From IMG/VR virus record IMGVR_UViG_3300009181_000063, positions 7,406-71,405 of that record: a stretch of DNA of 64,000 bases; one strand, 5' to 3'. This DNA comes from a virus. A program made the translations under genes and the position numbers. Below the pieces are notes generated by a model that saw nothing but the letters and a program-made list of their open reading frames with translations, did not search any database and was not told the origin of the DNA. Positions 1-55,474 of the stretch are shown here, piece by piece (the stretch's first letter is position 1; every line of letters begins with the position of its first letter).

Positions 1-1
1 C

Positions 2-115
2 GACCGAGTTTACAAGGCAGGTTGGGCAACTGACGCAATGGCAACAATGCGCACCGAATTGCACCCGAAGGTAGTTGCAACCTTCGAAGTGGAAGAAGAG
101 TTGGCTATCGCATAG
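2..115 (+). CDS. 3' end of hypothetical protein (truncated by window edge)
   Basis: Open frame DRVYKAGWATDAM...EEELAIA ending TAG at 113-115, followed by a terminator. Confidence 0.5.
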   Translation, partial: DRVYKAGWATDAMATMRTELHPKVVATFEVEEELAIA

Positions 116-127
116 CCAGCCCCAATG

Positions 128-160
128 GAAAGCCCTCGGCAGAGATGTCGGGGGTTTTTC
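128..160 (+). terminator. Intrinsic terminator
   Basis: GAAAGCCCTCGGCA-GAGA-TGTCGGGGGTTTTTC hairpin with T-run. Confidence 0.7.
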
Positions 161-233
161 CATGCCCGGATCCTGGAGCTCGTTTTTTTAGGGGATGCCA
201 AAATACTATTTTGCCCAAAGCCTCAATGCCAAT

Positions 234-396
234 TGTTTGTGTTGGACACCCACCCTCCCAGTGTCCTATCCCTAAAGGGATCGGGAGGAGAGAGATGATG
301 TGATGTAGATAACAACAAAGGGCATTAGTGCGATTGGCGAGAGATGAGAAGGTTCTCTTAGTTGAGGCGAACGACCTCAGCGACAGGGGCTAAGAA
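234..396 (+). repeat. Cassette header R1 (composite repeat/promoter)
   Basis: TGTTTGTGTTG 234-244; CCCACCCTCCC 249-259; box TGTGATGTAGATAACA 299-314; -35 TTAGTG 325-330; -10 GAAGGT 348-353; hairpin GTTGAGG/CCTCAGC from 361; GGGGCTAAG before ATG 397. Confidence 0.85.
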
Positions 397-663
397 ATGA
401 ACGAACAAAACGCAATGAAAGTGTTTGACCTTATTAGCAAGACTGGTAATGAGGAATTGACTTCAGAGGAAGTTAGTTTTCTCAACAACAACCTTGCGCC
501 TTTCACCTCAGTTCTAATTGAGGCAGGGGTTCATACAATGACCAATGCGGGAATGGATAAAGAGGAAGCACTCTCTATCTTGGAATTGCTCGCAATGGTA
601 TCTCGTATGGCTGGTGCGTCAAACTTCGTTGATTTCGTCAATGTAAAACAAATGGAGGGCTAG
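397..663 (+). CDS. Hypothetical protein (cassette 1)
   Basis: 88-aa ORF directly after header R1. Confidence 0.8.
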   Translation: MNEQNAMKVFDLISKTGNEELTSEEVSFLNNNLAPFTSVLIEAGVHTMTNAGMDKEEALSILELLAMVSRMAGASNFVDFVNVKQMEG

Positions 664-667
664 ACAA

Positions 668-1087
668 ATGGCATCAAAAGCAATAACTGTAAAAGTTCCA
701 ACGGCAAAAGTAATAACTGCTCTACAAGCAAAGTTGGAAAAGATTGAGTTGGATTTTGCTTCTCAAGAGTCCAATGATGCTCAATACCAAAACGCTATGG
801 AAGCGTGGCGCAAGGAAATTGGAAAGTGGGCTATTGACCGCTTCTCAAAGGCTTCTAACATCAGAACCAATTATCGGGAGTGGAACAAGACTCTCAATGT
901 TGATTTTGACATCACAGTTGATGAGAAAGAGTTTCCAAAAGAACCAGTGCGAGAGCACGACAAAATCCATCTTCACGAATACAAAGAGATGAAAGAGGAC
1001 ATTACAAATGCCCTTAGCATCTTGCGTATGACTGAGGAAGAAGTAGTAAATGCCTCAACTATGAAATCCATAGCAAGGTATCTATAA
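668..1087 (+). CDS. Hypothetical protein (cassette 1)
   Basis: 139-aa ORF, GAGGGCTAG upstream, terminator downstream. Confidence 0.85.
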   Translation: MASKAITVKVPTAKVITALQAKLEKIELDFASQESNDAQYQNAMEAWRKEIGKWAIDRFSKASNIRTNYREWNKTLNVDFDITVDEKEFPKEPVREHDKIHLHEYKEMKEDITNALSILRMTEEEVVNASTMKSIARYL

Positions 1088-1098
1088 GAGAAGCGACC

Positions 1099-1130
1099 GG
1101 CTGCTCTGGGCTTCGGCTCAGAGCGGCGCG
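1099..1130 (+). terminator. GC-rich hairpin closing cassette 1
   Basis: GCTGCTCTGGGC-TTCG-GCTCAGAGCGGC stem with UUCG tetraloop. Confidence 0.65.
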
Positions 1131-1142
1131 GGCCGCGCAAAA

Positions 1143-1301
1143 TGTTTGTGTTGGATCCCACCCTCCCTGATCCTTTCCCTTACAGGGAAGGTAAGAGAGA
1201 GATGTGACGCACATCACAGCAAAGCCTATTAGCGCTGGGGGATAGCGGGCTTATTGTTCAGTTATTAGAGAAGCACAGTATCTAATGGAATGGGGCTAGA
1301 C
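1143..1301 (+). repeat. Cassette header R2
   Basis: TGTTTGTGTTG 1143-1153; CCCACCCTCCC 1157-1167; TGTGACGCACATCACA 1203-1218; TTAGCG 1229-1234; TATTGT 1252-1257; ATTAGA/TCTAAT hairpin from 1264; GGGGCTAGAC before ATG 1302. Confidence 0.9.
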
Positions 1302-1553
1302 ATGGCAGATGATTTTTGGAAGCGTTACTACGGTTCATTCGTAGGCGCTCGCATCCTATCATTCGAGGGTATGAATACCGAGGATGATTTAGGCGACGGG
1401 TTCCCTGAATTTACCGTTCAATTCGCAAATGGTGAGATTGGACTAATCTCAGTATCACAAGACCCCGAGGGTAATGGCGGAGGATTCTTGTTCGGATTGG
1501 CATTACCTGCGGAGCATCCGCAAGGTGGAGAGATGAGGACACTCAATGCTTGA
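1302..1553 (+). CDS. Hypothetical protein (cassette 2)
   Basis: Track ORF 1290-1553; start moved to ATG 1302 behind the GGGGCTAG motif. Confidence 0.75.
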   Translation: MADDFWKRYYGSFVGARILSFEGMNTEDDLGDGFPEFTVQFANGEIGLISVSQDPEGNGGGFLFGLALPAEHPQGGEMRTLNA

Positions 1554-1656
1554 TGAATACAGCGATGATGAACTAATCGAAGTGCTCATTGCACGTGGGT
1601 GCTACGACATTGACAATGAAGGTCAAGCGATTATTTACACGGGGGTGAAGGTATGA
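1546..1656 (+). CDS. Small hypothetical protein (36 aa)
   Basis: MLDEYSDDELIEVLIARGCYDIDNEGQAIIYTGVKV; overlaps both neighbours' ends. Confidence 0.6.
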   Translation: MLDEYSDDELIEVLIARGCYDIDNEGQAIIYTGVKV

Positions 1657-1835
1657 GTAGATTAGAGGTAGGTGATACCTACACTACGCAAAAGACTGGT
1701 GTGACTGGCGTAATCATGGAGATTGTGCCAAATGACACGGGCTCCACTAGATTGAAGTTGTTGACCGCGGATCTCGTGATTCGTTGGACGACATACGTTC
1801 CTGAGAGACTGGGGCAGGTAAAGGTTTCTCGTTAG
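1653..1835 (+). CDS. Small beta-barrel-like protein, paralog of 17956-18159
   Basis: GDTYTTQKTGVTGVIMEIVPNDTGSTRLKL...RWTT aligns by eye with GDWYTTHSSGVSGRIQEIVPNKTGTSRVRL...RWTT. Confidence 0.8.
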   Translation: MSRLEVGDTYTTQKTGVTGVIMEIVPNDTGSTRLKLLTADLVIRWTTYVPERLGQVKVSR

Positions 1836-1856
1836 CCCCACTAAAGAGAAAGTGCT

Positions 1857-1980
1857 GGGTCACACTATAAAATGACCCTATAAATTTAGCTAGGCGAGTC
1901 AAAGCGCTTCACTTCCTTTCTTGCCAAGCGTATCCAGGATCCGGACTGTTCACCGGGGAGATATTGCTGCTCGCCTAGCT
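1857..1980 (+). ncRNA. Candidate structured non-coding RNA
   Basis: GGGTCA/TGACCC hairpin 1857-1878; perfect 11-bp stem AGCTAGGCGAG (1888-1898)/CTCGCCTAGCT (1970-1980) enclosing two inner hairpins. Confidence 0.4.
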
Positions 1981-2006
1981 GCTCCACTTTCGGCCGCTCG
2001 CAAAAA

Positions 2007-2172
2007 GTTTGTGTTGGCCCACCCTCCCCATTAGGGAATTATTATGAGAGAAGCTCAGCTACCGGGGATCCAGGTGTGACGAGCATCACAGCAAAGCCTC
2101 TTCGCCGTAGGGGAGAGATAAGAGATAGTTCTACTACTAGCAAATCGCTAGTGATTGAGAAAGGGGCTAGAC
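2007..2172 (+). repeat. Cassette header R3
   Basis: GTTTGTGTTG 2007-2016; CCCACCCTCCCC 2018-2029; TGTGACGAGCATCACA 2075-2090; TTCGCC 2101-2106; GATAGT 2124-2129; ACTAGC/GCTAGT hairpin from 2136; GGGGCTAGAC before GTG 2173. Confidence 0.88.
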
Positions 2173-2730
2173 GTGGGTTACTACGTTTCGTTGCATTCAT
2201 CAGATTGGGAGATTACAGAATCTCCTGAGTTACTGGCAGTTCTAAAAGAAATGCCTACACGGTTCCATGCTATCAAGCGTGGCGGTTCATCTAATGGTGA
2301 ATCATGGTTCTCATGGGTAAATGATGAGGACTTCGTCAAAGCGACTACATGCGAAGAGATTATCAACGCGTTTGGTTTCGAGACATCAGAATCACAAGGC
2401 GTTGTATCTATAGATGGATACAACAACAAGACTGGACAAGAAGACGTCCTACTCGCAGTCCTTGCACCATTCGTTACAGAAGGTGCAGAAATGGAATGGA
2501 GTGGCGAAGAAGGCGAGCGCTGGCTCTACCTTGTCAAAGACGGCAAGTTATTTGTATCAGGTGAAACGCGTAATTGGGATGAGCCTGAGCCATACAAGTA
2601 TCTTCACTACGATTTCCACACGGATGCAGATGGCAAAATGGTTACTGACACCAAGGTCATTGACATCTATGCGCCAATGCCAGAAGACTTAGTAAGTCGC
2701 TGGGATAAGAAGAAGAAGGTCGAAGCCTAA
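2173..2730 (+). CDS. Hypothetical protein (cassette 3)
   Basis: Track ORF 2155-2730; start moved to GTG 2173 after GGGGCTAG. Confidence 0.8.
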   Translation: MGYYVSLHSSDWEITESPELLAVLKEMPTRFHAIKRGGSSNGESWFSWVNDEDFVKATTCEEIINAFGFETSESQGVVSIDGYNNKTGQEDVLLAVLAPFVTEGAEMEWSGEEGERWLYLVKDGKLFVSGETRNWDEPEPYKYLHYDFHTDADGKMVTDTKVIDIYAPMPEDLVSRWDKKKKVEA

Positions 2731-2740
2731 GAAGTAGAAG

Positions 2741-2773
2741 AAGCCCCTCAGCCAAAAGCTGGGGGGTTTTTTC
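2741..2773 (+). terminator. Intrinsic terminator
   Basis: AAGCCCCTCAGC-CAAAA-GCTGGGGGGTTTTTT. Confidence 0.75.
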
Positions 2774-2845
2774 ATACCAGGATCCAGCTGCTCGATCGCG
2801 CCGGTAAATTTAGGGGTGCCAAATGTTATTTCCCAAAGCCTAATT

Positions 2846-3032
2846 TGTTTGTGTTGAACAGCCCTCCCACCCTGTTTAACCCTTTCAGGGAATGGGTAGG
2901 AGAGAGATAGCTAGCTAGCTGCTCGGCCGGTGTGATGCAGATAACACCAAAGCCTATTAGCGAGAGAGACACGTGGGCATATGTTTATACCAGTGAGCAA
3001 CACCGCTTACTAAATAGTGAAGGGCTAGGAAC
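2846..3032 (+). repeat. Cassette header R4
   Basis: TGTTTGTGTTG 2846-2856; CCCTCCCACCC 2862-2872; TGTGATGCAGATAACA 2931-2946; TTAGCG 2957-2962; TATGTT 2980-2985; AGTGAGC/GCTTACT hairpin from 2992; AGGGCTAG before GTG 3033. Confidence 0.88.
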
Positions 3033-3278
3033 GTGAGACCACTATCTCAAATTGCTCAGGACATCGAGTCCGAGTGCGGTACCAAGGATTGGTACGTATA
3101 TGCAGAAGCATATGTGACACCAATGAAATCGCTTACATCTTTAAGCGATACATATGGCGCTGATAGCGCTGAATCTATAGTGCTCTACGCACTATCTAAT
3201 CTCACCTCATGGCGAGGAGAGAGAGCCCGCAGTATCAAGGCGGAGCTCAACGGGATGCTCAAGGGGGTGAGTGCATGA
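3033..3278 (+). CDS. Hypothetical protein (cassette 4)
   Basis: 81-aa ORF after header R4. Confidence 0.8.
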   Translation: MRPLSQIAQDIESECGTKDWYVYAEAYVTPMKSLTSLSDTYGADSAESIVLYALSNLTSWRGERARSIKAELNGMLKGVSA

Positions 3279-3733
3279 GCGTCGATACATATAACCCGAA
3301 TGCGCTAGTTACTTATAAAAAGATAGCTGGCACCTATGCTGAACCAGAAGCACCAGAATACATTACCGACAAGGTAGTGGACCTCGAGTGGACGCTGCAC
3401 CAAGGGCGCGAAGCTCGCACCGAAGCTCAAAAGCTCCGGGCCACAATAGCTTCGATCCAGGAGCACATGACCCGCAACGATTGGTATAACCCGAATACAG
3501 AAGCATCGGAGATCCTGGCTGCTCTGCAGGAGATCCTGGGTTACGAACCAAAAGCTGAAATTCGGATCACAGCTGTAATTGAAGTAGAGGTTACGGTTGA
3601 GCTCAACATGGATGAAGTAGAAGATTTCGATGCAGAGACCTGGATCAGTGATTGGGTCTCAGTAGATACCAGCTCGGGAGATTCGAGCTGTGATAGCTGG
3701 GCAGTTAGCTCAGCTGATTGGGAAGATGCCTGA
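3275..3733 (+). CDS. Hypothetical acidic protein (cassette 4)
   Basis: Track ORF 3209-3733; ATGA-coupled start at 3275. Confidence 0.8.
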   Translation: MSVDTYNPNALVTYKKIAGTYAEPEAPEYITDKVVDLEWTLHQGREARTEAQKLRATIASIQEHMTRNDWYNPNTEASEILAALQEILGYEPKAEIRITAVIEVEVTVELNMDEVEDFDAETWISDWVSVDTSSGDSSCDSWAVSSADWEDA

Positions 3734-3905
3734 CGCATTAAGCATCGTGGGACGGCTGCTGGTCGAAGGGTCAGCAGCCTACCTAGATGCTAAAACAATC
3801 GATGAAGAGAATGGATATTCAGATGCTATGGAATCCATGGAGAGAAAGTACTGGGAAGGGTACACAGATGCTCTCTATGAATTGGAAGCTCTGATTAATA
3901 AATAG
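3726..3905 (+). CDS. Hypothetical protein (cassette 4)
   Basis: Track ORF 3690-3905; likely ATG 3726. Confidence 0.65.
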   Translation: MPDALSIVGRLLVEGSAAYLDAKTIDEENGYSDAMESMERKYWEGYTDALYELEALINK

Positions 3906-3909
3906 CCCG

Positions 3910-3948
3910 GTGCGATCCTGGCGGCTTCGGCCGCTGGGGTTGCGCTTT
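3910..3948 (+). terminator. Hairpin closing cassette 4
   Basis: GCGATCCTGGCGGC-TTCG-GCCGCTGGGGTTGC followed by T-rich sequence. Confidence 0.65.
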
Positions 3949-4103
3949 GTTTGTGTTGAATGCCCACCCACCCATTCACCCTTCGGGTTATTTTAAGAGA
4001 GAGCTCGCTCCTGGCGTGTGACGTACATCACATCAAAGCCTATTGGGGAGAGAGGTGCCATAAGGTTAAATATGCATTACATCAACGACATGGAGGCTAG
4101 TTC
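3948..4103 (+). repeat. Cassette header R5
   Basis: TGTTTGTGTTG 3948-3958; CCCACCCACCC 3963-3973; TGTGACGTACATCACA 4017-4032; CAAAGCCTATT; GGAGGCTAG before ATG 4104; -10 spacing less clean. Confidence 0.85.
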
Positions 4104-4805
4104 ATGGAAAAGTTAAAGCGTAGTAAGGACCGCAAGGTAGCTAATTCTCTCACCGCATCGGGCGGCGTTAGAATCGCTAATTCTTTCGGTCTACCGGCGG
4201 GCAAGGCATATTCATGCCCTAGCGCCACTAGTATATGCACACGCATATGTTATGCGGGCAAGCTAGAGAAGATTTACAAGGGTGTTAAGGCTAATCTCAT
4301 TCACAATTGGGATTTATTGAGAGATGCCGATCATGACACTATGGAAGCACTATTAGAAGAGATGATTGCAGACTTTCGCAAGGATTGTGAGAAATGGGAT
4401 GCGCCTAAAGAATTCCGTATCCATTGGGACGGGGATTTCTTTAAGCCAGACTACGCATTCGCATGGAAGCACGTTATTTTAAATAACCCGGATATTCTAT
4501 TCTGGGCATATACACGTGTAGAATCTGCAGCGTACATGCTCAAGGGCATGGATAACCTGGCGTTATATTTCTCCGCCGATACGGAGAATATGGAGGCGGC
4601 TAAGCGCTTAAGCGCACACGGTATCAAGCTCGCCGGGTTACATGAGACATTCTCTCAAGCTAAGGACATGCTCATGTCATTAGGTGAGAGAGGGGCTAAG
4701 TGCCCGGAACAACGTAAGCAAATTCCACTAGAGGGCGCATGCGTAGCATGCAGAATATGCCTAAAGGCGGATGCAAATATTACATTCTCAATAAGTAAGA
4801 GATAA
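4104..4805 (+). CDS. Gp88-like protein (Cys-rich, radical-SAM-like phage family)
   Basis: FGLPAG..CPSATSICTRICYAGK, FRIHWDGDF, FWAYTR, C-terminal CP...CVACRIC. Confidence 0.75.
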   Translation: MEKLKRSKDRKVANSLTASGGVRIANSFGLPAGKAYSCPSATSICTRICYAGKLEKIYKGVKANLIHNWDLLRDADHDTMEALLEEMIADFRKDCEKWDAPKEFRIHWDGDFFKPDYAFAWKHVILNNPDILFWAYTRVESAAYMLKGMDNLALYFSADTENMEAAKRLSAHGIKLAGLHETFSQAKDMLMSLGERGAKCPEQRKQIPLEGACVACRICLKADANITFSISKR

Positions 4806-4815
4806 GGGGATAAAA

Positions 4816-5097
4816 ATGGGACGTAATCTATCAATGGAGCTAGCTGGAGGATTGGGAGACCTATCCTTGCAGCACCAGCTCAAGATTCAATTGCAGAATA
4901 ATCACTACCCGCCAGTGCCTACGTCCATGGTATTCCCATGCATCGCGGCAATTACGGCCGTTAATGAGGAGGATCCTGGCAAGCTCATCGAATTACCGGA
5001 GGGCGTGCTATGGAGAGGGAAGACATCCGCGCCAGCGAGCGCGATAGTAGAGGCGCATCACCTTGATGCATGGTTAGATGGAGATGACTATGAGTAA
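4816..5097 (+). CDS. Hypothetical protein
   Basis: 93-aa ORF with AAGGGGA upstream. Confidence 0.8.
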   Translation: MGRNLSMELAGGLGDLSLQHQLKIQLQNNHYPPVPTSMVFPCIAAITAVNEEDPGKLIELPEGVLWRGKTSAPASAIVEAHHLDAWLDGDDYE

Positions 5098-5185
5098 TAC
5101 ATTCCTTGATTTGATGGACCAGATCCTAAAGGAGGGCCTGGCCGCCATCGATGCCCTAGATGAGGATGATCTAGAAGAAGAATAG
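5090..5185 (+). CDS. Small acidic peptide (31 aa)
   Basis: MSNTFLDLMDQILKEGLAAIDALDEDDLEEE, coupled to the upstream gene. Confidence 0.5.
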   Translation: MSNTFLDLMDQILKEGLAAIDALDEDDLEEE

Positions 5186-5219
5186 AGTTGCTCCCGGTTC
5201 TTGCCCGGTCGAGCACACG

Positions 5220-5266
5220 CTCCCAGCTGCTGCTAGCCCGGTAGCTGGGAGTTTTTCTTTTTTTAT
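5220..5266 (+). terminator. Intrinsic terminator
   Basis: CTCCCAGCTGC...GTAGCTGGGAG followed by a long T-run. Confidence 0.75.
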
Positions 5267-5296
5267 GGTTGTTTTTTTAGCCTACACCCATCCAAA

Positions 5297-5402
5297 TGTT
5301 TGTGTTGACCCACCCTCCCCTTATCCCTTCGGGATAGGGTAAGAGAGAGAGGCTGTGACGTAAGTCACATGTGACATTACTCACGCAGTGATGTTCATCA
5401 CA
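5297..5402 (+). repeat. Header R6 with three tandem CRP-type boxes
   Basis: TGTTTGTGTTG 5297-5307; CCCACCCTCCCC 5309-5320; boxes 5354-5369, 5370-5385, 5387-5402. Confidence 0.85.
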
Positions 5403-5588
5403 GTAGAGAGAGTTGAGTCGGGCCGGCTCAACTTTGCTGAGTCCAGCCCATTCAAGCTAATTCCACCGGGAATTTGCGATCTCGAGAGAGATGAGAGAGA
5501 ATGAGCTGAAGAGAGAGAGAAGGAGAGAGAGAGAGAGCCAAGCTAAGTAGCCGACATTAAATGTCGACAAATCGACTGATTAGGCTAC

Positions 5589-5604
5589 TGTGAGCCACAT
5601 CACA
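5589..5604. promoter_or_regulatory. CRP-type box
   Basis: TGTGAGCCACATCACA, perfect TGTGA-N6-TCACA. Confidence 0.7.
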
Positions 5605-5819
5605 GGACTCAGCAGTTATGCCACCAGCTCTACAGCCTGTTCAGCCTGAACATATGCGTATATGTGAGAGATATCGCTTGAATAGGCTGAATATGCGATC
5701 TCAGCCCGGTAGAGAATAAAGAAGCAGAGATAGCAAGCCAGGATCCATATGATTCTCTCTCTCATATGCTCTCTCTAGTAGAACAAGGAGAAGTAAATCT
5801 ATTTCGGGCCCATCCGCCA

Positions 5820-5881
5820 CGTGATGCAGGTCACAGCAAAGGTACTTAGCCATAGCGCCATCAAGCTCTAATGTTCTCTAT
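5820..5881 (+). promoter_or_regulatory. Box-linked promoter driving the 5.9-9.5 kb operon
   Basis: CGTGATGCAGGTCACA 5820-5835, TTAGCC 5846-5851, 17 nt, TAATGT 5869-5874; same spacing as R1-R4. Confidence 0.8.
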
Positions 5882-5898
5882 ATCAAGCAAACAACGAA

Positions 5899-6126
5899 AT
5901 GGAGCAAAAAATGATGGATTACCACAAGGCTGAAGAGGACAAGTACGACGCAGAACGTGACGTTGCTTTCCACGCAATTATGCAATTGGTTCGTGACTCA
6001 CTCACAACCAAGCAACAGGAAGAACTTATCAAGTTATACGTAGATGCCACATTTGCAAGTTATTGGGCTGGCTGGCATGGTCATGGCTATGCCATTGAGA
6101 AGGTCGAAAAGAAGGTGAGCGCATGA
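5899..6126 (+). CDS. Hypothetical protein
   Basis: 75-aa ORF (start may be ATG 5911 after GGAG). Confidence 0.7.
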   Translation: MEQKMMDYHKAEEDKYDAERDVAFHAIMQLVRDSLTTKQQEELIKLYVDATFASYWAGWHGHGYAIEKVEKKVSA

Positions 6127-6263
6127 ACGATTCAATTAGCTGGGGCGAGTTAGCCGAACTCACCCACGAGTCACAGGTCGAGCGATTTGGCTTCTGTTCT
6201 TGTGAGGATCTTGAACCTCATGAGTATCCCTATCCATCATGCCTAACAAGGTTGATTCCATGA
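6123..6263 (+). CDS. Small hypothetical protein (46 aa)
   Basis: MNDSISWGELAELTHESQVERFGFCSCED...; ATGA overlaps on both sides. Confidence 0.65.
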   Translation: MNDSISWGELAELTHESQVERFGFCSCEDLEPHEYPYPSCLTRLIP

Positions 6264-6517
6264 GTCGCGTTATTAGGTATGACAGTAATGGCGAACAGTT
6301 TTTGGGCGATCCGCCATCGCTGGCAGAAGTCATGGCTGATGTAGATGACCTAAGAGAAGGTAAGATTCCAGCAGGTGAACTGCATGGTCGTGTATTAGAC
6401 ATTGTTGGGTCAATTCGTGACCTTGATGGTGAACTCTATTCAGACGAACAATGCCTATGGATGATTCACGATGTTATTAACCACTGGTCAGAACTAGCAG
6501 ATGAAGGGAGATTTTGA
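6260..6517 (+). CDS. Hypothetical protein
   Basis: Track ORF 6239-6517; coupled start at 6260. Confidence 0.7.
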   Translation: MSRVIRYDSNGEQFLGDPPSLAEVMADVDDLREGKIPAGELHGRVLDIVGSIRDLDGELYSDEQCLWMIHDVINHWSELADEGRF

Positions 6518-6660
6518 TGGACTTTGAGAATGTTATACCTATTGAGTCTAAGCCGAAGGTGTATTCAAAATTTTCGGACAAAAATACAAGAGAGCAGATA
6601 TTGCAATCATTGCAAGATGAAGGACGACTTCATATCATCAAAGTAGGGGAGGATGAATGA
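6517..6660 (+). CDS. Small hypothetical protein (47 aa)
   Basis: MDFENVIPIESKPKVY...; TGATG and ATGA overlaps fill the gap. Confidence 0.6.
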   Translation: MDFENVIPIESKPKVYSKFSDKNTREQILQSLQDEGRLHIIKVGEDE

Positions 6661-6888: not shown

Positions 6889-7179
6889 ATGGCAGTAAAA
6901 GCATATGAAAACCTCAAACCAACTGCGGATTTATGGGAATGGCAAAATCAAGGTAATTGCGTAGGCAAGGATCCTGAGATGTTCTTTTTAGAGCATAACA
7001 TGCGTGACTCCATGAAGCGCAAGAAAGAAACAGAAGCAAAAGCTGTGTGCAAAGGTTGCCCGGTAATTGCTAAATGTTTAAATCACGCGTTAAGTGTCCC
7101 TGAAGCCTATGGCGTATGGGGTGGCTTGAGTGCTGATGAAAGGTTTTATTACAACACCAAGAGAAGGGTAAACGCATGA
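6889..7179 (+). CDS. whiB: WhiB family transcription factor
   Basis: Four Cys (C..DPEMFF...AKAVCKGCPVIAKC) and GVWGGLS turn. Confidence 0.95.
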   Translation: MAVKAYENLKPTADLWEWQNQGNCVGKDPEMFFLEHNMRDSMKRKKETEAKAVCKGCPVIAKCLNHALSVPEAYGVWGGLSADERFYYNTKRRVNA

Positions 7180-11713: not shown

Positions 11714-11730
11714 AACATATCCGATATGTT
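11714..11730. promoter_or_regulatory. 17-bp palindromic operator-like site upstream of nrdJ
   Basis: AACATATC-C-GATATGTT; reverse-complement-identical copy at 12364-12380. Confidence 0.55.
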
Positions 11731-13190
11731 TATTCTTCTATTGCTTGCTTAATTATGGTCGTGGTGTCCTCTTCGCTGATCCCACCGTTAGGTATTTCTT
11801 TTAAGATTTGAGCTTTCTCGCCAAATATTTGAGACAAAACTCCAGCGTTTCCTTGGCGCTCTACGGTCATTCTAATGAACTCTCGCGAATCGTCCAATTC
11901 TTTAGTTGTTTTAATTAATTTAAACAAACGATCAATCTCTTGGCTAACATTTGGGTCAGCGTACCCGCCGTTCATTTCTTCAGCAAATCGCATAAAAGCA
12001 ACTCTTTGCCCCTGCATTTCGATGATTGCGTTAATTAAACTCTTAAGTTGATCTTTAGTCTTTACTTCAATAGGGAGTTTAAATGCACAAGTATTTTGAG
12101 GTTTAAACGCTGGGCAATTTGATGCAATAAAGCACGTGTCGCACTGACGCAAACTTGTGTCATGTGTACGAATTACTGGAACATCTTTTAGTACGTCGTT
12201 ACCTGAATCATCTCGTTCAACAATGGTCTTTATTTCAAATCCAAAGACAGGTAAATTGCCCATTTCTTCTGGATTTCTAGGTTGAAGTTTCCGCATCTCT
12301 ACCCCCAACCTATCCGATACTGCGGGTACGTTTTCCGCATAATCTTCACCAGCTGGATCTTCAAACATATCGGATATGTTGCCCACTTTGGTTAACCTCG
12401 TCTCTAATTGGTCAAAAGACCAAACTGCTAATTTACAAAGTTCTTCTGAATCATCTCCGACTATCTTGTCAAAGTCTAAACCAGCCTTTTCGTACACGGC
12501 CTTGTGACGTGGACGAGCTTGCTCTTTCATGCTCTTTGGGTAGCGTACCAGTCTGGTTCCGTCCCAGACGATGGTTTCTCCACGAGTCATTGGCGATAGC
12601 CACGAAAGTGTTGCCGCGCTCTCCACGGGCACCTGACGCAGGTTGTCTGGTCGGGCTGTACCCAAGGCGTGGAAGCGGCTTCCTTCTGTCCTTACAAGCC
12701 TCTGTGTGACTCCTGATAGCCACGTGTGATCTTCTAGGGACTCACCGGGAAGGGCTACATCCAAGTACTTGGCGGTTAGTTCGCCTAACCCCTTTTGACC
12801 GGTTTGAGGGTTCCAGACAGGCAAGAACTTGGCTGGTGGCATTTCCGCCCAGACAGTTTCTCGTTGATCTCGAACAAAGTCAGGGCTTACTTGAAAGTGG
12901 TTAATCTCTGTGAATTGATTAAGGCGTTCAATATTGTTGACTATAAACTCTTCATAATCAGCGGCAAACTCTTCCAGCTCTGTGCGACCAATCTCTTGGG
13001 CTCTTGGTATTCCGGGGTGAACCAGAATGCTCATGCCTTCTGGAAAGTAGTTCTCTAATAAATAAATCTTGGTTTTGGGTAAGCCCCGTTTAACTAAACG
13101 CCAGTAACTTACGCCAACAGACGTGGCTCCAGCTGAGCCTAAAAGGATGCGGTTGCTAGGGACCTCTGCCCCAAGGTAGATAATCTTCAC
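11730..13190 (-). CDS. TGT/DpdA-like barrel domain (apparently degenerate) fused to a Cys4 domain
   Basis: FLPVWN, FHALG...LRQVPVESAATLSW..RGE resemble TGT-like phage proteins; CDTC...CP...C in the C-terminal part. Confidence 0.5.
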   Translation of the reverse strand: MKIIYLGAEVPSNRILLGSAGATSVGVSYWRLVKRGLPKTKIYLLENYFPEGMSILVHPGIPRAQEIGRTELEEFAADYEEFIVNNIERLNQFTEINHFQVSPDFVRDQRETVWAEMPPAKFLPVWNPQTGQKGLGELTAKYLDVALPGESLEDHTWLSGVTQRLVRTEGSRFHALGTARPDNLRQVPVESAATLSWLSPMTRGETIVWDGTRLVRYPKSMKEQARPRHKAVYEKAGLDFDKIVGDDSEELCKLAVWSFDQLETRLTKVGNISDMFEDPAGEDYAENVPAVSDRLGVEMRKLQPRNPEEMGNLPVFGFEIKTIVERDDSGNDVLKDVPVIRTHDTSLRQCDTCFIASNCPAFKPQNTCAFKLPIEVKTKDQLKSLINAIIEMQGQRVAFMRFAEEMNGGYADPNVSQEIDRLFKLIKTTKELDDSREFIRMTVERQGNAGVLSQIFGEKAQILKEIPNGGISEEDTTTIIKQAIEE

Positions 13191-22706: not shown

Positions 22707-23553
22707 TTATTTTCTCCTCTTTGTAGTCGGAGCACTTTGGGCACCCTGCAACACCATTAATATTACAGATGGGAGGGGTACCTTTGTCAATTGCTAAAAT
22801 GATGTTGGCTGCCGCTTCAAATAACTCGGCAATACCCCAATCATTTTTTTGTACTACAAATTCTTTATGTTCGTGAAGACCCTTTGCTTCGTACAAAATA
22901 AGGGCTTCTTGTGGGGCATTAGGCTGTCCCATAAGTTCTAACAGCTTCATATAAATCTGTGCCTGATGAATGTGCTCTAAAAATGGTGCGCCAATAGCTG
23001 CCCACATCTTTTTAAAATCATTGTTATTTGCATATGCAATGTCTGGGGCATACCAACGAATACTGCCCTCACCAATAGTTTTTACTTCAAGTAGTAGTGG
23101 ATCTCCAAAATTAACAAGCCATCCGTCGGCCTTACCTGAAATGCGAAGGGGGTCAAAAAACACAGGCACTTCGTTGTATTTAGTACGGCATCCGCCTTGT
23201 GCGTGTTCGCTATTTAAACCAAACCACTCTAAATCATGTGTGTAGCAATACCATAAGCCTTTAATCTGATCCATCTCTTTAAACCAACTTTGCCACATAT
23301 TGTGAGCGGCGTGACCTGTTCCAAAAATAGATGCGCGACGAAGACTCATAACTTCTGGTTTAGGTGCGTGACCGTTTAGCCAAAAGTATTGTGCCCGGTG
23401 ACACCAGCTTGCTGATGCCATTTCAGAAGGGTGGATTACATCTGAAGCACGAAAATCTCGCGGCTTCGAAATAATATGTTTTTCAACTTTACCAATTACT
23501 CTGGTGCCTTTATCTGCTGCTAAAAACGCTTTCAATGCACCAGTTGGTTTCAT
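22687..23553 (-). CDS. Cas4/RecB-like PD-(D/E)XK exonuclease
   Basis: HPSE..WC, GHAAH, GKADG..LLEVKT, QAQIY, C-terminal Cys cluster. Confidence 0.85.
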   Translation of the reverse strand: MKPTGALKAFLAADKGTRVIGKVEKHIISKPRDFRASDVIHPSEMASASWCHRAQYFWLNGHAPKPEVMSLRRASIFGTGHAAHNMWQSWFKEMDQIKGLWYCYTHDLEWFGLNSEHAQGGCRTKYNEVPVFFDPLRISGKADGWLVNFGDPLLLEVKTIGEGSIRWYAPDIAYANNNDFKKMWAAIGAPFLEHIHQAQIYMKLLELMGQPNAPQEALILYEAKGLHEHKEFVVQKNDWGIAELFEAAANIILAIDKGTPPICNINGVAGCPKCSDYKEEKISERVSN

Positions 23554-23876
23554 TTCTTTTTAACCCATTCCTCTAATGTTTTCCCGTTTTTAGCGGCTTT
23601 TCTTTTAAGAGCGTTGCGCTCTCGATGAGATAAGCCACCCCATATACCGTGTTGTTCATCGTTTTGATCCGAATACAAAAGGCAGGCTAGTCTCACGGGA
23701 CATTCTGCCTTACCATCCTTGCCAAAGCAAACTGCCTTAGCCTTGTCAGCAATAGGTTTATATTTAGTTTTATCGCGTGGAGGGAACCAGTAATCGGTTT
23801 CTGGGCTGTCGCACATGCCGCGGCATTTAGCCTGATAACGCCACTTCTCTACACCTTCGTCTTCGTACAAGAGCAC
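23550..23876 (-). CDS. whiB: WhiB family transcription factor
   Basis: AKC...WFPP...AKAVC....ECPVRLAC...HGIWGGLS. Confidence 0.93.
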   Translation of the reverse strand: MLLYEDEGVEKWRYQAKCRGMCDSPETDYWFPPRDKTKYKPIADKAKAVCFGKDGKAECPVRLACLLYSDQNDEQHGIWGGLSHRERNALKRKAAKNGKTLEEWVKKK

Positions 23877-53453: not shown

Positions 53454-53585
53454 CTACTCAGTTTCTGCGGGAGCGACTAAGTCGTACCCGATTACTTCTC
53501 CAGTATCTGCGTTCTTTACCTCAAACTTTTCAAAACCAGAGGCTTCTACCCCAAGGCTTGTTTTAGTTACGTTAATAGCTGTCAT
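53454..53585 (-). CDS. Small hypothetical protein (43 aa)
   Basis: [35 protein letters not shown]..., ATGA-coupled to the fibre gene. Confidence 0.55.
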
Positions 53586-55102
53586 GCTAGGCGACCCCAG
53601 TATCCGTTAGATGTGTTAGTTAGAGGAGTGGCTGTAGCCAGAAGATCTGATTGACCGTCTAGGTAACCACGCATAATTGGGCTAAGTACGTTGAGGGGTG
53701 TGGCTGGGTAACCAAACGCTAGGAAACCAGTTCCCGGAGTAGTAGCCACTACCAGTACCGCAAAACCATAACGAGTACCAGCCGTTAAGGTAACTGAATT
53801 TCCCAGACTTCGGGTGTAAACAGTGTTACGAGTTGAGAATATCGTAGAGTCATTAGCGGTGTTAGCAAGTCTAGTTGCTGTTGTTTCGTTAAATGAGTAG
53901 ATACCCATCTTTACAAGAGTTGCTCCAGTAGTTGCTGTACCAGCAGATGCCACCGTTACGTTGGTTACTGTTGTTGTAAACATAGGCGTAAAGAATGTCC
54001 AGTAGATAGTTCCACTTTCAAATGTTGCCGAACGGTTATCCCAGCGAGGGGATACGTCAACGTAAGTTGACTGTAAGTCAAAACGAGCAAGAACTTGTTC
54101 TGCAAGAGCCACAGTACCGTTAGCATTTGGAAGCGTAATTGTTCTGTCAGCAGTTGGGTCCGTTACCTGAAGAGTAGTTTCAAACGCGTCAGCGGTAGTT
54201 CCTTCAAAAACAATGTTTGATCCCACCATTGGATCTGTAAGAGTAAGACCAGCAATAGTTGATGCGGTTCCACCAAGTGAAACTGAAGTGCTACCAATGG
54301 TTACAGAGGAGTTTGCTAACTTAACGTTAGTTACATTAGCGTCTACAATCTTGGCTGTTGTAACAGATAAGTCTGCAGGGGTTCTAACGTTAGTAAGGCG
54401 GGTATCAGTTCCATAAACTACCTGTGAGGTAGACGCATCTCCAGTTGCTGGCACGTCTTTTACAGAGGATGTGCCAAGACCAGTTACCTGGGTGTTTGCA
54501 ATTGAAATAAGAGTTTGGTTGATACCAATATTTGCAGCAGTTGAGGTGCCGCTATTTGTAATTGGTCCAGTTACTGAGATGACTCCAGAAGGGCCTGTAA
54601 CGGTGCTGTTAGCACCAGTTGCACCAGTTGCACCAGTTGGCCCTGTAGCGCCAGTTGGGCCTGTAACGGTGCTGTTAGCACCAGTTGCACCAGTTGCACC
54701 AGTCGGACCAGTTGGACCTGTAGGTCCTGTCGGTCCAGTTACCGTGCTTGCTGCACCTGTTGATCCTGTCGGACCAGTAGGACCTGTTGGACCTGTAGGT
54801 CCTGTCGGTCCAGTAGCACCAATAGGTAAAACTAAATTTAATGTTTGTGTTGGTGCTGTTCCAGAAACAGAAGCACCTGCGCTTGCACCACTTGATACAG
54901 AACCAATGCTTAATGAGTTAGGTGCACCCGTTGGACCTGTTGGGCCAGAAGAATAAGGAAGAGAGTTCCAGACTGTAGCGCCAGTACCTACTTTAAACTT
55001 TCCAGTGTCGTACTCGTAACCTACTTCACCTTGTGAAAGGGTAGGGTTGGTGCTCGTCCATGTAGCAGCAGAGTCACGTCTAAATTGAACACGAACAGCC
55101 AT
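53582..55102 (-). CDS. Collagen-like tail fibre protein
   Basis: VQFRRD.AA.W...NP.L..GE.GYE.DT.KFKVG.G N-terminal domain; (GPT)n/(GAT)n repeats. Confidence 0.88.
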
Positions 55103-55111
55103 TAGATCTCC

Positions 55112-55474
55112 TTAAGCTCCGGCAGCAAATCCACAGTCAATGATAGATGAACCACCATAGATTGTTGTAGCTGTACCGCCATCTACATTTTGAAACACAG
55201 GTCCTGTTGGTCCGGTTTCTCCGATTAATCCTGTTGGACCAGTAACTCCTTGTGCACCAGTTGGGCCCGTAGGTCCAGTAGGTCCAGTTGGACCAGTGGG
55301 TCCTGTTACTGAAGGACCAGTTGGGCCCGTAACTCCGGGACCAGTTGGACCAGTAGGACCGACAGGTCCTTGGGCAACACTAATTCTCCATACTGCGCCA
55401 TCCCAATACCACAGCTGATCTCCAGCCGAAAACAGCTGGTTTACGGCAGGGGAGTTGGGAAAGTCGATTGGCAT
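55112..55474 (-). CDS. Collagen-like virion protein
   Basis: IDFPNSP...WYWDG.VW then (GPT)n. Confidence 0.85.

What the first reader, a model, noticed from the sequence alone, without database searches (positions are those of the whole stretch)
128..5900. Array of self-contained gene cassettes headed by a six-copy composite DNA element
Seen: six headers start at 234, 1143, 2007, 2846, 3948 and 5297 (spacing about 0.84-1.35 kb). Their parts occur in fixed order: TGTTTGTGTTG, CCC(A/T)CCC(T/A)CCC, a CCC/GGG hairpin, a GAGAG(AG) tract and TGTGA-N6-TCACA. R1-R5 continue with CAAAG, promoter, leader (stem-loop in R1-R4), GGCTA(G/A), then 1-3 mutually unrelated small genes and a closing hairpin/terminator. 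R1 and R4 also share about 45 nt upstream (TTTAGGGG.TGCCAAA...TATTT..CCCAAAGCCT). Established: T4-type phages have PeSL promoter/stem-loop cassettes implicated in modular shuffling. Inference: this is an integrase-free exchangeable cassette platform for early host-takeover or anti-defence genes. It adds a putative G4 and a CRP-type box, a combination I do not recognise as described.
Basis: partly seen in the sequence, partly recalled or inferred. Interest (0 to 1): 0.9.

Follow-up and report, generated by a model that had tools for sequence, protein, structure and literature searches.

The report
Conserved header before phage early promoters
A freshwater actinobacterial phage starts each small early gene unit with the same terminator, "header", operator and promoter module, and the header is an apparently undescribed element shared by dozens of uncultured phages in which these gene units are shuffled.

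Summary
Six composite headers lie at 234, 1143, 2006, 2846, 3948 and 5297. A seventh full copy and a degenerate eighth lie just upstream of the window. The record is a 71.4-kb myovirus genome with WhiB genes and 44% GC, probably from a phage of low-GC freshwater Actinobacteria. Each intergenic region reads: terminator, header, TGTGA-N6-TCACA operator, host-type promoter (inferred), 5' hairpin leader, GGGGCTAG ribosome site, then 1-3 unrelated small genes. The header (GTTTGTGTTG, CCCNCCCNCCC, small hairpin, GGGAR, GAGAG) is a separate module. It recurs about 170 times in 52 IMG/VR contigs, always clustered in one roughly 5-kb early region. Different operator and promoter types follow it in different contigs. 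When a spacer separates the 10-mer from the C-tract, a complementary arm follows the tract, with strong covariation. The tract is therefore displayed as a hairpin loop in single-stranded nucleic acid. It has no Rfam match. I found no recombinase, sigma-factor or T7-type polymerase gene. Cassettes occur in different orders in relatives, and one sharp recombination joint sits at a header edge. The closest analogue is the T4 PeSL promoter-terminator cassette. The header's molecular role is unresolved; I favour a read-through RNA insulator. The G4 idea is not supported across the family.

The parts
128..163 (+). Intrinsic terminator (hairpin plus T-run) closing the R0 cassette, whose gene ends at 115
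   Evidence: Folds at -26.9 kcal/mol over 116-175. It matches the terminator part of an Rfam leader model.
186..233 (+). Optional upstream module TTTAGGGG.TGCC...CCCAAAGCC (R1 copy)
   Evidence: Shared with R4 (2806-2845) and seen before about 30 of 131 distinct headers in other contigs.
234..295 (+). Header R1: TGTTTGTGTTG, P1 hairpin GGACAC/GTGTCC around CCACCCTCCCA, CCCTAAAGGG hairpin, GGGAGG, GAGAGAGA
   Evidence: P1 arm listed.
299..353 (+). R1 operator TGTGATGTAGATAACA (299-314), CAAAG, inferred -35 TTAGTG (325-330) and -10 GAAGGT (348-353)
   Evidence: The spacing is fixed in all copies.
360..1087 (+). R1 unit: leader with 5' hairpin (about 360-381), GGGGCTAA ribosome site, genes 397-663 (88 aa) and 668-1087 (139 aa)
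   Evidence: No Pfam or PHROG hit. RNA contigs cover 372-672 and 664-944.
1093..1136 (+). GC-rich hairpins without a T-run closing the R1 cassette
   Evidence: -33.6 kcal/mol over 1088-1142.
1143..1202 (+). Header R2 (P1 arms GGATC/GATCC)
1203..1257 (+). R2 operator TGTGACGCACATCACA, inferred -35 TTAGCG (1229-1234) and -10 TATTGT (1252-1257)
1264..1835 (+). R2 unit: leader and genes 1302-1553, 1546-1656, 1653-1835
   Evidence: One RNA contig of a relative skips 1549-1658.
1848..1992 (+). Long imperfect hairpin closing the R2 cassette
   Evidence: -50.8 kcal/mol over 1836-2005.
2006..2053 (+). Header R3, short form with no P1 stem and three C-runs
2075..2129 (+). R3 operator TGTGACGAGCATCACA, inferred -35 TTCGCC (2101-2106) and -10 GATAGT (2124-2129)
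2136..2730 (+). R3 unit: leader hairpin and gene 2173-2730 (185 aa, phrog_38862, unknown function)
2742..2772 (+). Intrinsic terminator closing the R3 cassette
2806..2845 (+). Upstream module (R4 copy)
2846..2907 (+). Header R4 (P1 arms GAACAG/CTGTTT, with a G-U pair)
2931..2985 (+). R4 operator TGTGATGCAGATAACA, inferred -35 TTAGCG (2957-2962) and -10 TATGTT (2980-2985)
2992..3905 (+). R4 unit: leader and genes 3033-3278 (phrog_13953), 3275-3733, 3726-3905
3909..3946 (+). 17-bp terminator hairpin whose T-rich tail is the start of header R5
3948..4003 (+). Header R5 (P1 arms GAATG/CATTC)
4017..4066 (+). R5 operator TGTGACGTACATCACA and -35-like TTGGGG (4043-4048). The -10 is off-register: TAAGGT at 4061-4066.
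4104..5185 (+). R5 genes: 4104-4805 (GP88 family, PF17338), 4816-5097, 5078-5185
5219..5252 (+). Intrinsic terminator closing the R5 cassette
5297..5352 (+). Header R6, the TTATCCCTTCGGGATAGGGT type. In relatives this type is nearly identical and is always the last header.
5354..5898 (+). R6 control region: three abutting operator-like sites (5354, 5370, 5387), a hairpin, a GA-rich tract (5480-5537), further sites at 5589 and 5820, and an inferred promoter (-35 5846-5851, -10 5869-5874) for the operon starting at 5899

Best explanation
The region is the early-gene arm of a lytic-type WhiB-encoding myovirus. It is built from at least seven autonomous transcription units. Each unit is separated from the previous one by a composite control module: terminator hairpin, header, operator, promoter, 5'-hairpin leader and ribosome site.

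Shown:
- The repeats are real and their parts keep a fixed order.
- The spacing from operator to the -35-like and -10-like hexamers is fixed.
- The header is an independent module. Its distance to the operator varies (56-84 nt, not phased). It is shared by 52 uncultured phage contigs, where other operator and promoter types follow it.
- Where a spacer separates GTTTGTGTTG from the C-triplet tract, a complementary arm follows the tract, with many compensatory changes.
- Cassettes are permuted among relatives, and one recombination joint maps to a header edge.

Inferred:
- Host RNA polymerase starts about 61 nt after the operator begins.
- The TGTGA-N6-TCACA box is bound by a CRP/GlxR-type host factor or by a phage repressor, which co-regulates all early units.
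- The header works as single-stranded nucleic acid. Most likely it is the RNA made when polymerase reads through the upstream terminator. It would present an unpaired C-rich tract and act as a second-line insulator (factor-dependent termination, for instance Rho loading), so that each regulated promoter is shielded from upstream transcription.
- Because the header is nearly identical everywhere, it also serves, like T4 PeSLs, as a homology patch for ordinary recombination. The phage has a UvsX-like recombinase. This recombination moves whole promoter-plus-gene units between phages without a site-specific recombinase.

My odds: composite PeSL-like regulatory cassette, about 0.8. Header acts in single-stranded form, about 0.6. 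Specifically an RNA insulator, about 0.3. The confidence figure given for this explanation (0.55) is for the statement as a whole, excluding the specific insulator mechanism.
For: The extra copies are.

Promoter model: in 6 of the 7 operator-proximal promoters with a -10 in register (5 of 6 in the window, plus R0 and R-1), an nAnnnT hexamer lies 49-54 nt after the operator start and TTnGnG lies 17 nt before it. The predicted +1 falls on the first base of a leader hairpin in R0-R4 and R-1.

Metatranscriptome contigs from different studies begin 12-30 nt downstream of the predicted starts: 372-375 in three runs, 1279-1280 in two, 2165-2166 in two, and 3012 in one. This is a weak hint only.

Spread of the header: 67 loci from 54 IMG/VR contigs hold the pattern, and all but 2 contigs look genuine. 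A further 21 relaxed matches have E<0.001. In 5 records, 3 of them 100% complete, all copies lie in one segment of about 5 kb, and the reversed control pattern gives 0 hits.

P1 covariation: the mean stem is 4.96 bp against 2.86 +/- 0.19 in permutations, with 0 of 1000 reaching the observed value, over 53 headers and more than 25 arm pairs. The tool count gives 81.7% of cells paired against 63.3%, and a covariation score of 0.601 against 0.245 (0 of 500), with slid controls at or below 0.18 and 29 double-change cells.

Strand hint: G-U extensions outnumber A-C extensions 16 to 6 in P1 and 107 to 69 in P2.

Upstream context: about 100 of 131 distinct copies follow GC-rich or terminator structures. 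About 30 follow a T-run plus the module.

Downstream of 146 headers, lineage-specific boxes are enriched: CRP-like 46, CGACACGCC 32, ATCGTTAT 30, TGTCGGTG-N8-nAnnnT 11, DnaA-box 9.

Mosaicism: gene-order maps are. Identity to L056 is 0.53-0.82 per 100 nt to the left of R0 and rises to 0.98-1.00 exactly from AAATGTTTGTGTTG.

No recombinase, sigma70 region 2 or T7-type polymerase was found. A UvsX-like recombinase is present. A CRP-family regulator is present in a Nanopelagicaceae MAG. PeSL properties were read in PMC2839356 (abstract and section 13) and PMC4122927 (abstract).
Against: No direct evidence shows that the header is transcribed. None of the contigs laid from four metatranscriptomes covers a header, but depth was low and only contigs were available.

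An intrinsic terminator usually precedes the header, so little read-through RNA may exist.

63 of 117 distinct headers have no P1 stem. RNAalifold finds no consensus fold for all 112 aligned headers. Folding energy is no better than shuffles on the + strand (z = -0.04), and is -0.82 on the - strand.

The header is not C-rich and G-poor overall, as classical rut sites are (recalled).

A subfamily (L003, L008, L016, L022, L043, L058) is inverted relative to both flanking genes. This fits a DNA-level or bidirectional role as well as it fits an RNA role.

The G-U excess is not corrected for the G/T-rich composition.

The neighbour-turnover test shows no excess of shuffling at header junctions.

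The promoter hexamers are paralogous copies, so their agreement is not independent evidence. R5 is out of register.
Confidence: 0.55

Rival explanations
1. The header is a double-stranded DNA site, or two sites (AAAT-GTTTGTGTTG and the C/G-triplet tract). A conserved host or phage protein binds it, acting as an upstream activator, architectural element or roadblock for early promoters. The hairpin complementarity would be incidental, or would serve cruciform recognition.
For: The header lies 65-130 bp upstream of the inferred starts, where activators bind. The 10-mer is almost invariant even in relaxed searches, with only T9C variants. One subfamily works in inverted orientation. A second class carries an inverted copy of the 10-mer about 100 bp downstream. 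Neighbouring boxes look like sites for known DNA-binding regulators. No fold is thermodynamically favoured.
Against: The spacing between the 10-mer and the C-tract varies by 1-5 bp, and the spacing to the promoter by 28 bp without helical phasing. Every inserted 5' arm is matched by a complementary 3' arm, which has no rationale for a duplex site. In one class-2 lineage the inverted 10-mer carries a change that keeps a G-U pair (L014, L024).
Confidence: 0.2
2. The header is a small regulatory RNA or its seed. The C-triplet loop would act like the C-rich loops of actinobacterial 6C RNA (recalled) and pair with G-rich ribosome sites such as the phage's own GGGGCTAG or host mRNAs. It would be made in many copies early in infection.
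For: The C-tract is kept unpaired, either in a covarying hairpin loop or as a linker. The inverted subfamily is a compact unit of module, header and GC hairpin with a T-rich tail, lying antisense between two genes, which looks like a free-standing gene. The base after the 10-mer is always a purine, and an A/T-rich AAAT precedes it.
Against: There is no consistent promoter: 35 of 131 copies lack an A at either possible -11 position, and -35 scores are poor. The module-to-header spacing is not conserved among inverted copies. No terminator follows the header in the standard copies. Rfam 6C does not match. No RNA contig covers a header.
Confidence: 0.1
3. The header is a dedicated recombination site, attC-like or REP-like, recognised as a folded single strand. 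It would make the array an active cassette-exchange platform.
For: Conserved unpaired core plus covarying stems is also the logic of integron attC and REP elements (recalled). Cassettes are permuted among relatives, mostly with a header at each junction. One joint lies exactly at a header edge. The GT-rich 10-mer resembles sequences favoured by RecA-type pairing (recalled).
Against: No integrase, resolvase or Y1 transposase is in the record, and no such domain is in the early genes scanned. Each cassette carries its own promoter, unlike integron cassettes. Turnover is no higher at header junctions. Other patches of divergence lie next to headers or inside a cassette.
Confidence: 0.08
4. The repeats are a recent local tandem duplication of one promoter region, or an assembly artefact, with no function for the header itself.
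For: The promoter and leader parts of R0-R5 are clearly paralogous.
Against: The header recurs in 52 contigs from many samples, with different downstream promoters and different genes. DNA runs from at least 9 studies hold half or more of the sampled words of the stretch. The stems have diverged while staying complementary.
Confidence: 0.02

Closest known systems
PeSL (promoter-early stem-loop) cassettes of T4-type phages (Arbiol et al. 2010, PMC2839356; Comeau et al. 2014, PMC4122927)
   Same: Both are small composite terminator-plus-early-promoter modules. Both are repeated many times in one plastic region, stand before small genes of unknown function, and are implicated in indels and replacements by homologous recombination without a site-specific recombinase.
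   Different: There is no sequence relationship, and the phage lineage and host phylum differ. Here a third element of 50-65 nt (the header) sits between terminator and promoter. It is conserved across lineages whose promoters differ. The promoters carry operator boxes. Mini-circles and promoter or terminator activity have not been tested.
CRP/GlxR-type operator TGTGA-N6-TCACA of Actinobacteria (consensus recalled)
   Same: The palindrome is exact in 4 of the 6 header-proximal sites in the window. It sits at a fixed position, about 53 bp upstream of the inferred start, next to a weak -35.
   Different: The binding protein is unknown. Three sites abut each other in R6, which is more typical of a phage repressor array. 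The position fits neither classical class I nor class II spacing (recalled).
6C RNA (Rfam RF01066), the C-rich-loop small RNA of Actinobacteria
   Same: It shows a hairpin that displays an unpaired C-rich loop, in an actinobacterial setting.
   Different: There is no covariance-model match at E<=10. There is one C-loop rather than two, the triplet pattern is CCCNCCCNCCC, no promoter or terminator of its own is evident, and it is multi-copy in phage intergenic regions.
Integron attC sites and REP/RAYT elements (recalled)
   Same: They share the design of a conserved short core with covarying stems in repeated intergenic elements that delimit gene cassettes.
   Different: No integrase or RAYT gene is present, the cassettes have promoters, and there is no R/L-box or GTAG-type core.

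Membership tests
PeSL-type regulatory cassette | Host sigma-70/sigmaA-type early promoter inside the repeat | tested here: inconclusive
   -35-like TTnGnG, a 17-nt spacer and -10-like nAnnnT lie at a fixed distance from the operator in 5 of 6 window copies plus R0 and R-1. The generic promoter scan did not list them. No activity data exist.
PeSL-type regulatory cassette | Stem-loop terminator or attenuator forming part of the repeat | tested here: met
   A stable hairpin precedes every header in the window (-27 to -51 kcal/mol). 4 of 6 have T-runs. About 100 of 131 distinct copies elsewhere follow GC-rich structures.
PeSL-type regulatory cassette | Concentrated in a plastic region, upstream of small ORFans | tested here: met
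   All copies fall in one segment of about 5-6 kb in G000 and in 5 other records. 8 of the 10 cassette proteins scanned have no Pfam hit, apart from GP88, and 7 of 10 have no PHROG hit.
PeSL-type regulatory cassette | Breakpoints between close relatives coincide with the motifs | tested here: inconclusive
   One sharp joint lies at the R0 header edge, with replaced patches beside R3 and R4. However, there is no excess turnover at header junctions, and one indel lies inside a cassette.
PeSL-type regulatory cassette | Excised mini-circles joined at the motif | not testable with these tools
   Only contigs, not raw reads, could be laid.
Integron-like cassette array | IntI-type tyrosine recombinase | tested here: not met
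   PF00589 gives no match in the record (the record is about 74% complete).
Integron-like cassette array | Promoterless cassettes ending in attC | tested here: not met
   Each unit has its own operator, promoter and leader.
REP/RAYT or IS200/IS605-type hairpin element | Y1 (HUH) transposase | tested here: not met
   PF01797 gives no match.
6C RNA (RF01066) | Match to the covariance model | tested here: not met
   No hit at E<=10 in 1-6600.
G-quadruplex / i-motif element | Four runs of three or more C (or G) within the element | tested here: not met
   5 of 6 in the window have four runs, but only 47 of 117 distinct headers in the family do.
CRP/GlxR binding site | TGTGA-N6-TCACA palindrome | tested here: met
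   Ten sites with at most 1 mismatch lie in 299-5835 against about 2 expected in 64 kb.
CRP/GlxR binding site | Bound by a CRP-family protein of the host | not testable with these tools
   A CRP-family HTH gene exists in a Nanopelagicaceae MAG, and none in the phage. The host itself is only inferred.
Promoter for a phage-encoded polymerase or sigma factor | Phage gene for sigma-70 region 2 or a T7-type RNA polymerase | tested here: not met
   0 of 5 header-bearing records for PF04542 and 0 of 5 for PF00940. The PF00940 control rang nowhere, so that negative is weak.

The most novel reading that the evidence does not exclude
The header is a new family of structured single-stranded element, most simply an RNA, specific to freshwater actinophages. 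A C-triplet tract is held unpaired on an optional covarying hairpin next to an invariant GUUUGUGUUG. The element would act as a portable transcription insulator or as a trans-acting anti-ribosome-site RNA. It would also be the common joint through which whole promoter-plus-gene units are exchanged between otherwise divergent phage lineages.
Probability: 0.3. Interest if true: 0.8.

Novelty: new variant of a known kind. Interest (0 to 1): 0.62.

Why it matters
Phages of the most abundant freshwater bacteria are almost unstudied at the level of gene regulation. This finding gives a concrete, testable anatomy of their early transcription units. It also identifies a conserved motif of about 55 nt that marks early regions in at least 52 uncultured phage contigs, so it can serve as an annotation landmark.

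The motif combines invariant unpaired segments with covarying stems and has no Rfam match. It is therefore a candidate new cis-acting RNA or single-stranded DNA element.

The same loci show that small early genes travel as promoter-equipped units between phages. This extends the PeSL idea from T4-like phages of Gram-negative hosts to actinophages.

The operator boxes that follow the headers look like sites for CRP, LexA, DnaA and PafBC. They suggest that these phages wire early expression to the host's physiological state.

Tried and rejected
**Rejected readings of the header**
- Promoter inside the header (-10 = AAATGT or AATGTT, start at the end of the 10-mer). 35 of 131 copies lack the key A, and no -35 is present. 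In the inverted subfamily a TTGCCA-16-TAATGT arrangement exists in some copies, but its spacing is not conserved.
- T7/T3-like promoter. The strings CTATAGGGAG and CCCTAAAGGGA resemble recalled T7 and T3 promoters. The spacing to the conserved 5' half varies, and no T7-type polymerase was found (with a weak control).
- ECF or SigF-type promoter readings (recalled consensus). The spacing does not fit.
- G4/i-motif as a family feature.
- Pseudoknot between the C-tract and GGGAGG/GAGAG. It is possible in some copies but impossible in the AT-type and GT-type spacers.

**Analyses that gave nothing**
- A common fold for all headers: RNAalifold gives none, and energy z-scores are about 0.
- 6C RNA in the Nanopelagicaceae MAG: none found, but the genome is incomplete.
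- Header in cultured phages: blastn of 63 nt against 50,697 phage records gave nothing at E<=1. The low-complexity filter may mask the C-tract and GA-tract, so this negative is weak.
- I tried to reach the cultured Planktophila phages E7 and F5 (PMC10202952, part 1 read) through a WhiB tblastn. They were not among the rows listed, so they remain untested.
- Header in bacterial genomes: 17 loci matched, of which 15 are chance matches without the other parts. Two are small phage-like contigs binned into MAGs.

**Metatranscriptomes**
- No laid contig covers any header or operator. Depth was 2-8 and only contigs were kept, so this says nothing either way.

**Neighbour-diversity test**
- It found no difference. 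The test is crude: ORF calling was by length, only exact-pattern headers were counted, loci were partial, and L006 and L053 were dropped as chance hits.

**Literature**
- Searches for the 10-mer string (134 papers, the 20 listed all unrelated primers or probes), for actinophage/intergenic/repeated motif/early genes/freshwater (0 papers) and for Nanopelagicales/phage/whiB/intergenic found no description of the element.
- Passages of PMC6802176 do not mention it.
- Supplementary files were not consulted and could hold motif tables.
- The sequence of the RecA-NDp motif is recalled. The two papers read in passages name the motif but do not print it.

Full report
**The record.** The window is bases 7406-71405 of a single 71,405-bp virus record with 44% G+C. 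CheckV-type completeness is 74% and no terminal repeats were found. It encodes a tail sheath, baseplate proteins, DNA polymerase, a helicase, a UvsX-like recombinase, ribonucleotide reductase, two DNA methyltransferases and two WhiB-like proteins. It is therefore a myovirus of an actinobacterium. The low G+C, the freshwater metagenome runs that hold it and a header-bearing contig binned with a Nanopelagicaceae MAG point to a Nanopelagicales-like host. This is an inference. Cultured Planktophila phages have 44.7-44.8% G+C (PMC10202952, part 1 read). Genes run rightwards from about genome 4.9 kb to window 9194, and leftwards after that.

**Checking the observation.** The 11-mer, the CRP-like palindrome and the C-triplet tract are all far above chance and confined to the first 6 kb. 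The genome upstream of the window adds a seventh complete module (R0, genome 6881) and an eighth with a degenerate header. R0 also carries TCGAACAGATGTTCGA (genome 6941-6956) between header and operator. This matches the recalled LexA box of mycobacteria.

**Anatomy of one unit.** Downstream of each header lies the operator at positions 1-16, followed by nCAAAG. A TTnGnG hexamer lies at 27-32, and after 17 nt an nAnnnT hexamer lies at 50-55. This holds in 5 of 6 window copies and in R0 and R-1; R5 is out of register. A start about 7 nt further on would fall on the first base of a 5'-terminal hairpin in R0-R4 and R-1. It gives 37-41-nt leaders that end in GGGGCTAG plus 3-5 nt before the start codon. 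RNA contigs of four lake metatranscriptomes cover the coding parts of R1-R5. In two or three independent runs they begin 12-30 nt after these predicted starts. This is only a weak hint, because contigs cannot show ends. Each cassette ends in a stable hairpin, and 4 of 6 have a T-run. The cassette genes fall in different sequence families. Only GP88 (PF17338), a DUF4192 fragment, an HNH endonuclease upstream and three PHROGs of unknown function are recognisable.

**The header is a separate, widespread module.** A scan of IMG/VR with GTTTGTGTTG-N1-5-CCCNCCCNCCC returned 67 loci from 54 contigs with 148 matches. All but two contigs (L006, L053) also have the downstream GAGAG tract, or, in a second class, an inverted copy of the 10-mer. 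A profile search added 21 copies at E<0.001, in which the 10-mer varies only by T9C and the third C-triplet may be CCT. In five records, three of them complete, all copies lie in one segment of about 5 kb, and the reversed control pattern has no hits. All five records encode WhiB. The distance from the 10-mer to the operator in this phage is 56, 59, 64, 68, 68, 84 and 84 nt, which is not helically phased. In other contigs the header is followed by other boxes. Of 146 distinct copies, 46 have a CRP-like palindrome, 32 CGACACGCC, 30 ATCGTTAT-type repeats, 11 TGTCGGTG-N8-nAnnnT, 9 a DnaA-box string and 5 a GAAC-N4-GTTC string within 200 nt. Each is well above its background rate. Upstream, about 100 of 131 distinct copies follow GC-rich or terminator structures and then AAAT.

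**Single-stranded structure.** Of 117 distinct headers, 63 have one base between the 10-mer and the C-tract and no flanking stem. 53 have 3-5 bases there, and in these a complementary arm follows the tract. The mean stem is 4.96 bp against 2.86 +/- 0.19 when 3' flanks are permuted (0 of 1000), with more than 25 different arm pairs. On the 23 distinct copies with a 3-nt spacer, the pair-counting tool gives 81.7% of cells paired against 63.3% in shuffles. The covariation score is 0.601 against 0.245 (0 of 500), slid controls are at or below 0.18, and 29 cells changed on both sides. A second, smaller hairpin follows (for instance CCCTAAAGGG, TATCCCTTCGGGATA, CTTAC-TTC-GTAAG, TTTAC-TTC-GTAAA). Its stems average 5.43 bp against 4.32 in shuffles, with 72 of 115 at 5 bp or more. 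G-U extensions outnumber A-C extensions, 16 to 6 in P1 and 107 to 69 in P2. This points weakly to the gene-sense strand but is not corrected for composition. Against a tightly folded RNA, there is no alignment-wide consensus fold and no energy advantage over shuffles. What is conserved is the unpaired sequence: the 10-mer, three C-triplets whose spacers are never C, GGGAR and GAGAG. No Rfam family matches at E<=10.

**What the header is not.** It is not a conserved G-quadruplex, because only 47 of 117 headers have four runs. It is not a promoter for a phage sigma factor or a T7-type polymerase. It is not a convincing host promoter. It is not a feature of host genomes, since 15 of 17 genome hits are chance. 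No recombinase was found in the record.

**Cassette exchange.** Families A, B, C, D, E, F, G, H, K and L of this phage recur in 10-16 of 57 contigs (54 from IMG/VR plus G000, L166 and L181) in different orders:
- Here: A|H|B|H|C D|H|E F|H|G|H|H..|H|K L.
- L028: |H|B|H|A|H|E F|H|G|H|H.
- L054: C|H|B|H|D A|H|E|H|G|H|H I K L.
- L050: ..|H|D|H|A|H|B.
- L027 and L066: L K.

The closest relative (L056) is collinear. Its identity is 0.53-0.82 per 100 nt, with one window at 0.96, to the left of R0. Identity rises to 0.98-1.00 exactly at AAATGTTTGTGTTG and stays mostly at 0.96-1.00. Replaced patches lie just upstream of and inside the R3 header, and directly after the R4 GAGAG tract. Against a header-specific mechanism, the share of the commonest downstream neighbour is 0.58 for 11 families with a header at the junction and 0.60 for 36 families without one. 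In addition, an RNA contig of a relative lacks just the 36-codon gene 1546-1656.

**Interpretation.** The array is best described as a PeSL-like system of portable early transcription units. PeSLs are composite sigma-70 promoter plus stem-loop terminator motifs that flank ORFans and mediate shuffling (PMC2839356, abstract and section 13; PMC4122927, abstract). The additional, lineage-independent header works in single-stranded form. Its place, after a terminator and before a regulated promoter, and its mostly co-directional orientation make a read-through RNA insulator the most economical reading. This is inference, and a duplex-DNA site, a C-loop small RNA and a dedicated recombination site remain open. 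The operator is most simply a CRP/GlxR-type site. A CRP-family regulator exists in a Nanopelagicaceae MAG and none in the phage. However, the three abutting sites in R6 would also suit a phage repressor.

**Novelty.** Literature searches and passages of freshwater-phage papers found no description of the element. Supplements were not seen. I rate it a new variant of a known kind (composite promoter-terminator cassettes). It contains a motif that may prove to be a new structured element.

Noticed in passing
window 5354-5898: About 545 nt of non-coding DNA lie between header R6 and the next gene. The stretch holds three abutting TGTGA-N6-TCACA-like sites, two more at 5589 and 5820, a 58-nt GA-rich tract (5480-5537) and the palindrome ATGTCGACAAATCGAC. 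Parts of it are conserved in L009, L011, L018, L051, L062 and L065. It could be a regulatory hub, an origin or a non-coding RNA.
   Followed up: partly
L183 6941-6956 (genome coordinates; 450-465 nt before the window start): TCGAACAGATGTTCGA lies between header R0 and its operator. It matches the recalled mycobacterial LexA (SOS) box. The same string follows headers in L004/L054, L056 and L061.
   Followed up: partly
L017, L019, L025, L048, L050, L061, L064 (downstream of headers): 11 of 146 headers are followed by TGTCGGTG-N8-nAnnnT, against a background of 0.003 per 200 nt. This matches my recalled form of the PafBC-dependent RecA-NDp promoter of mycobacteria. If right, some freshwater actinophages drive early genes from a DNA-damage-type host promoter.
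   Followed up: partly
L002, L007, L010, L022, L052, L064: DnaA-box strings (TTATCCACA / TGTGGATAA) stand directly after the GAGAG tract of headers. L002 has up to three in a row.
   Followed up: no
L008, L012, L013, L014, L020, L023, L024, L045, L049, L057, L181: A second class of header has GTTTGTGTTGG facing CCAACACAAAC about 100 nt downstream, enclosing the C-tract and two or three hairpins. In L014 and L024 the partner reads CCGACACAAAC, which keeps a G-U pair.
   Followed up: partly
L003, L008, L016, L022, L043, L058: A header subfamily (CCCCATTCCCCTACGGGGAATCGAGAGAG plus a GC hairpin) lies inverted relative to both flanking genes, directly after the upstream gene's terminator hairpin.
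   Followed up: partly
window 385-396, 655-667, 1290-1301, 2163-2172, 3021-3032, 4092-4103: Start codons of cassette genes are preceded by an unusual conserved ribosome-site context, (A)GGGGCTAG(A/G), 3-5 nt before ATG or GTG. It also precedes the second gene of R1.
   Followed up: no
window 1546-1656: A metatranscriptome contig of a related strain joins 1549 to 1658 and so lacks the 36-codon gene. This is a presence/absence polymorphism inside a cassette.
   Followed up: no
window 57770-59353 (+): A 527-aa gene matches the PHROG 'tryptophan halogenase' at E = 5e-135, an unusual auxiliary gene for a phage.
   Followed up: no
window 11730-13190 (-): A 486-aa queuine tRNA-ribosyltransferase-like protein may point to 7-deazaguanine modification of the phage DNA (recalled association).
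   Followed up: no
window 53582-55474 (-): Tail-fibre-like genes carry long collagen-like Gly-X-Y repeats, seen as GGNCCNGTN runs on the opposite strand.
   Followed up: no
window 23550-23876 (-): A second WhiB-like gene (genome 31012-31248) sits in the leftward gene block, in addition to the early WhiB at 6889-7179.
   Followed up: no
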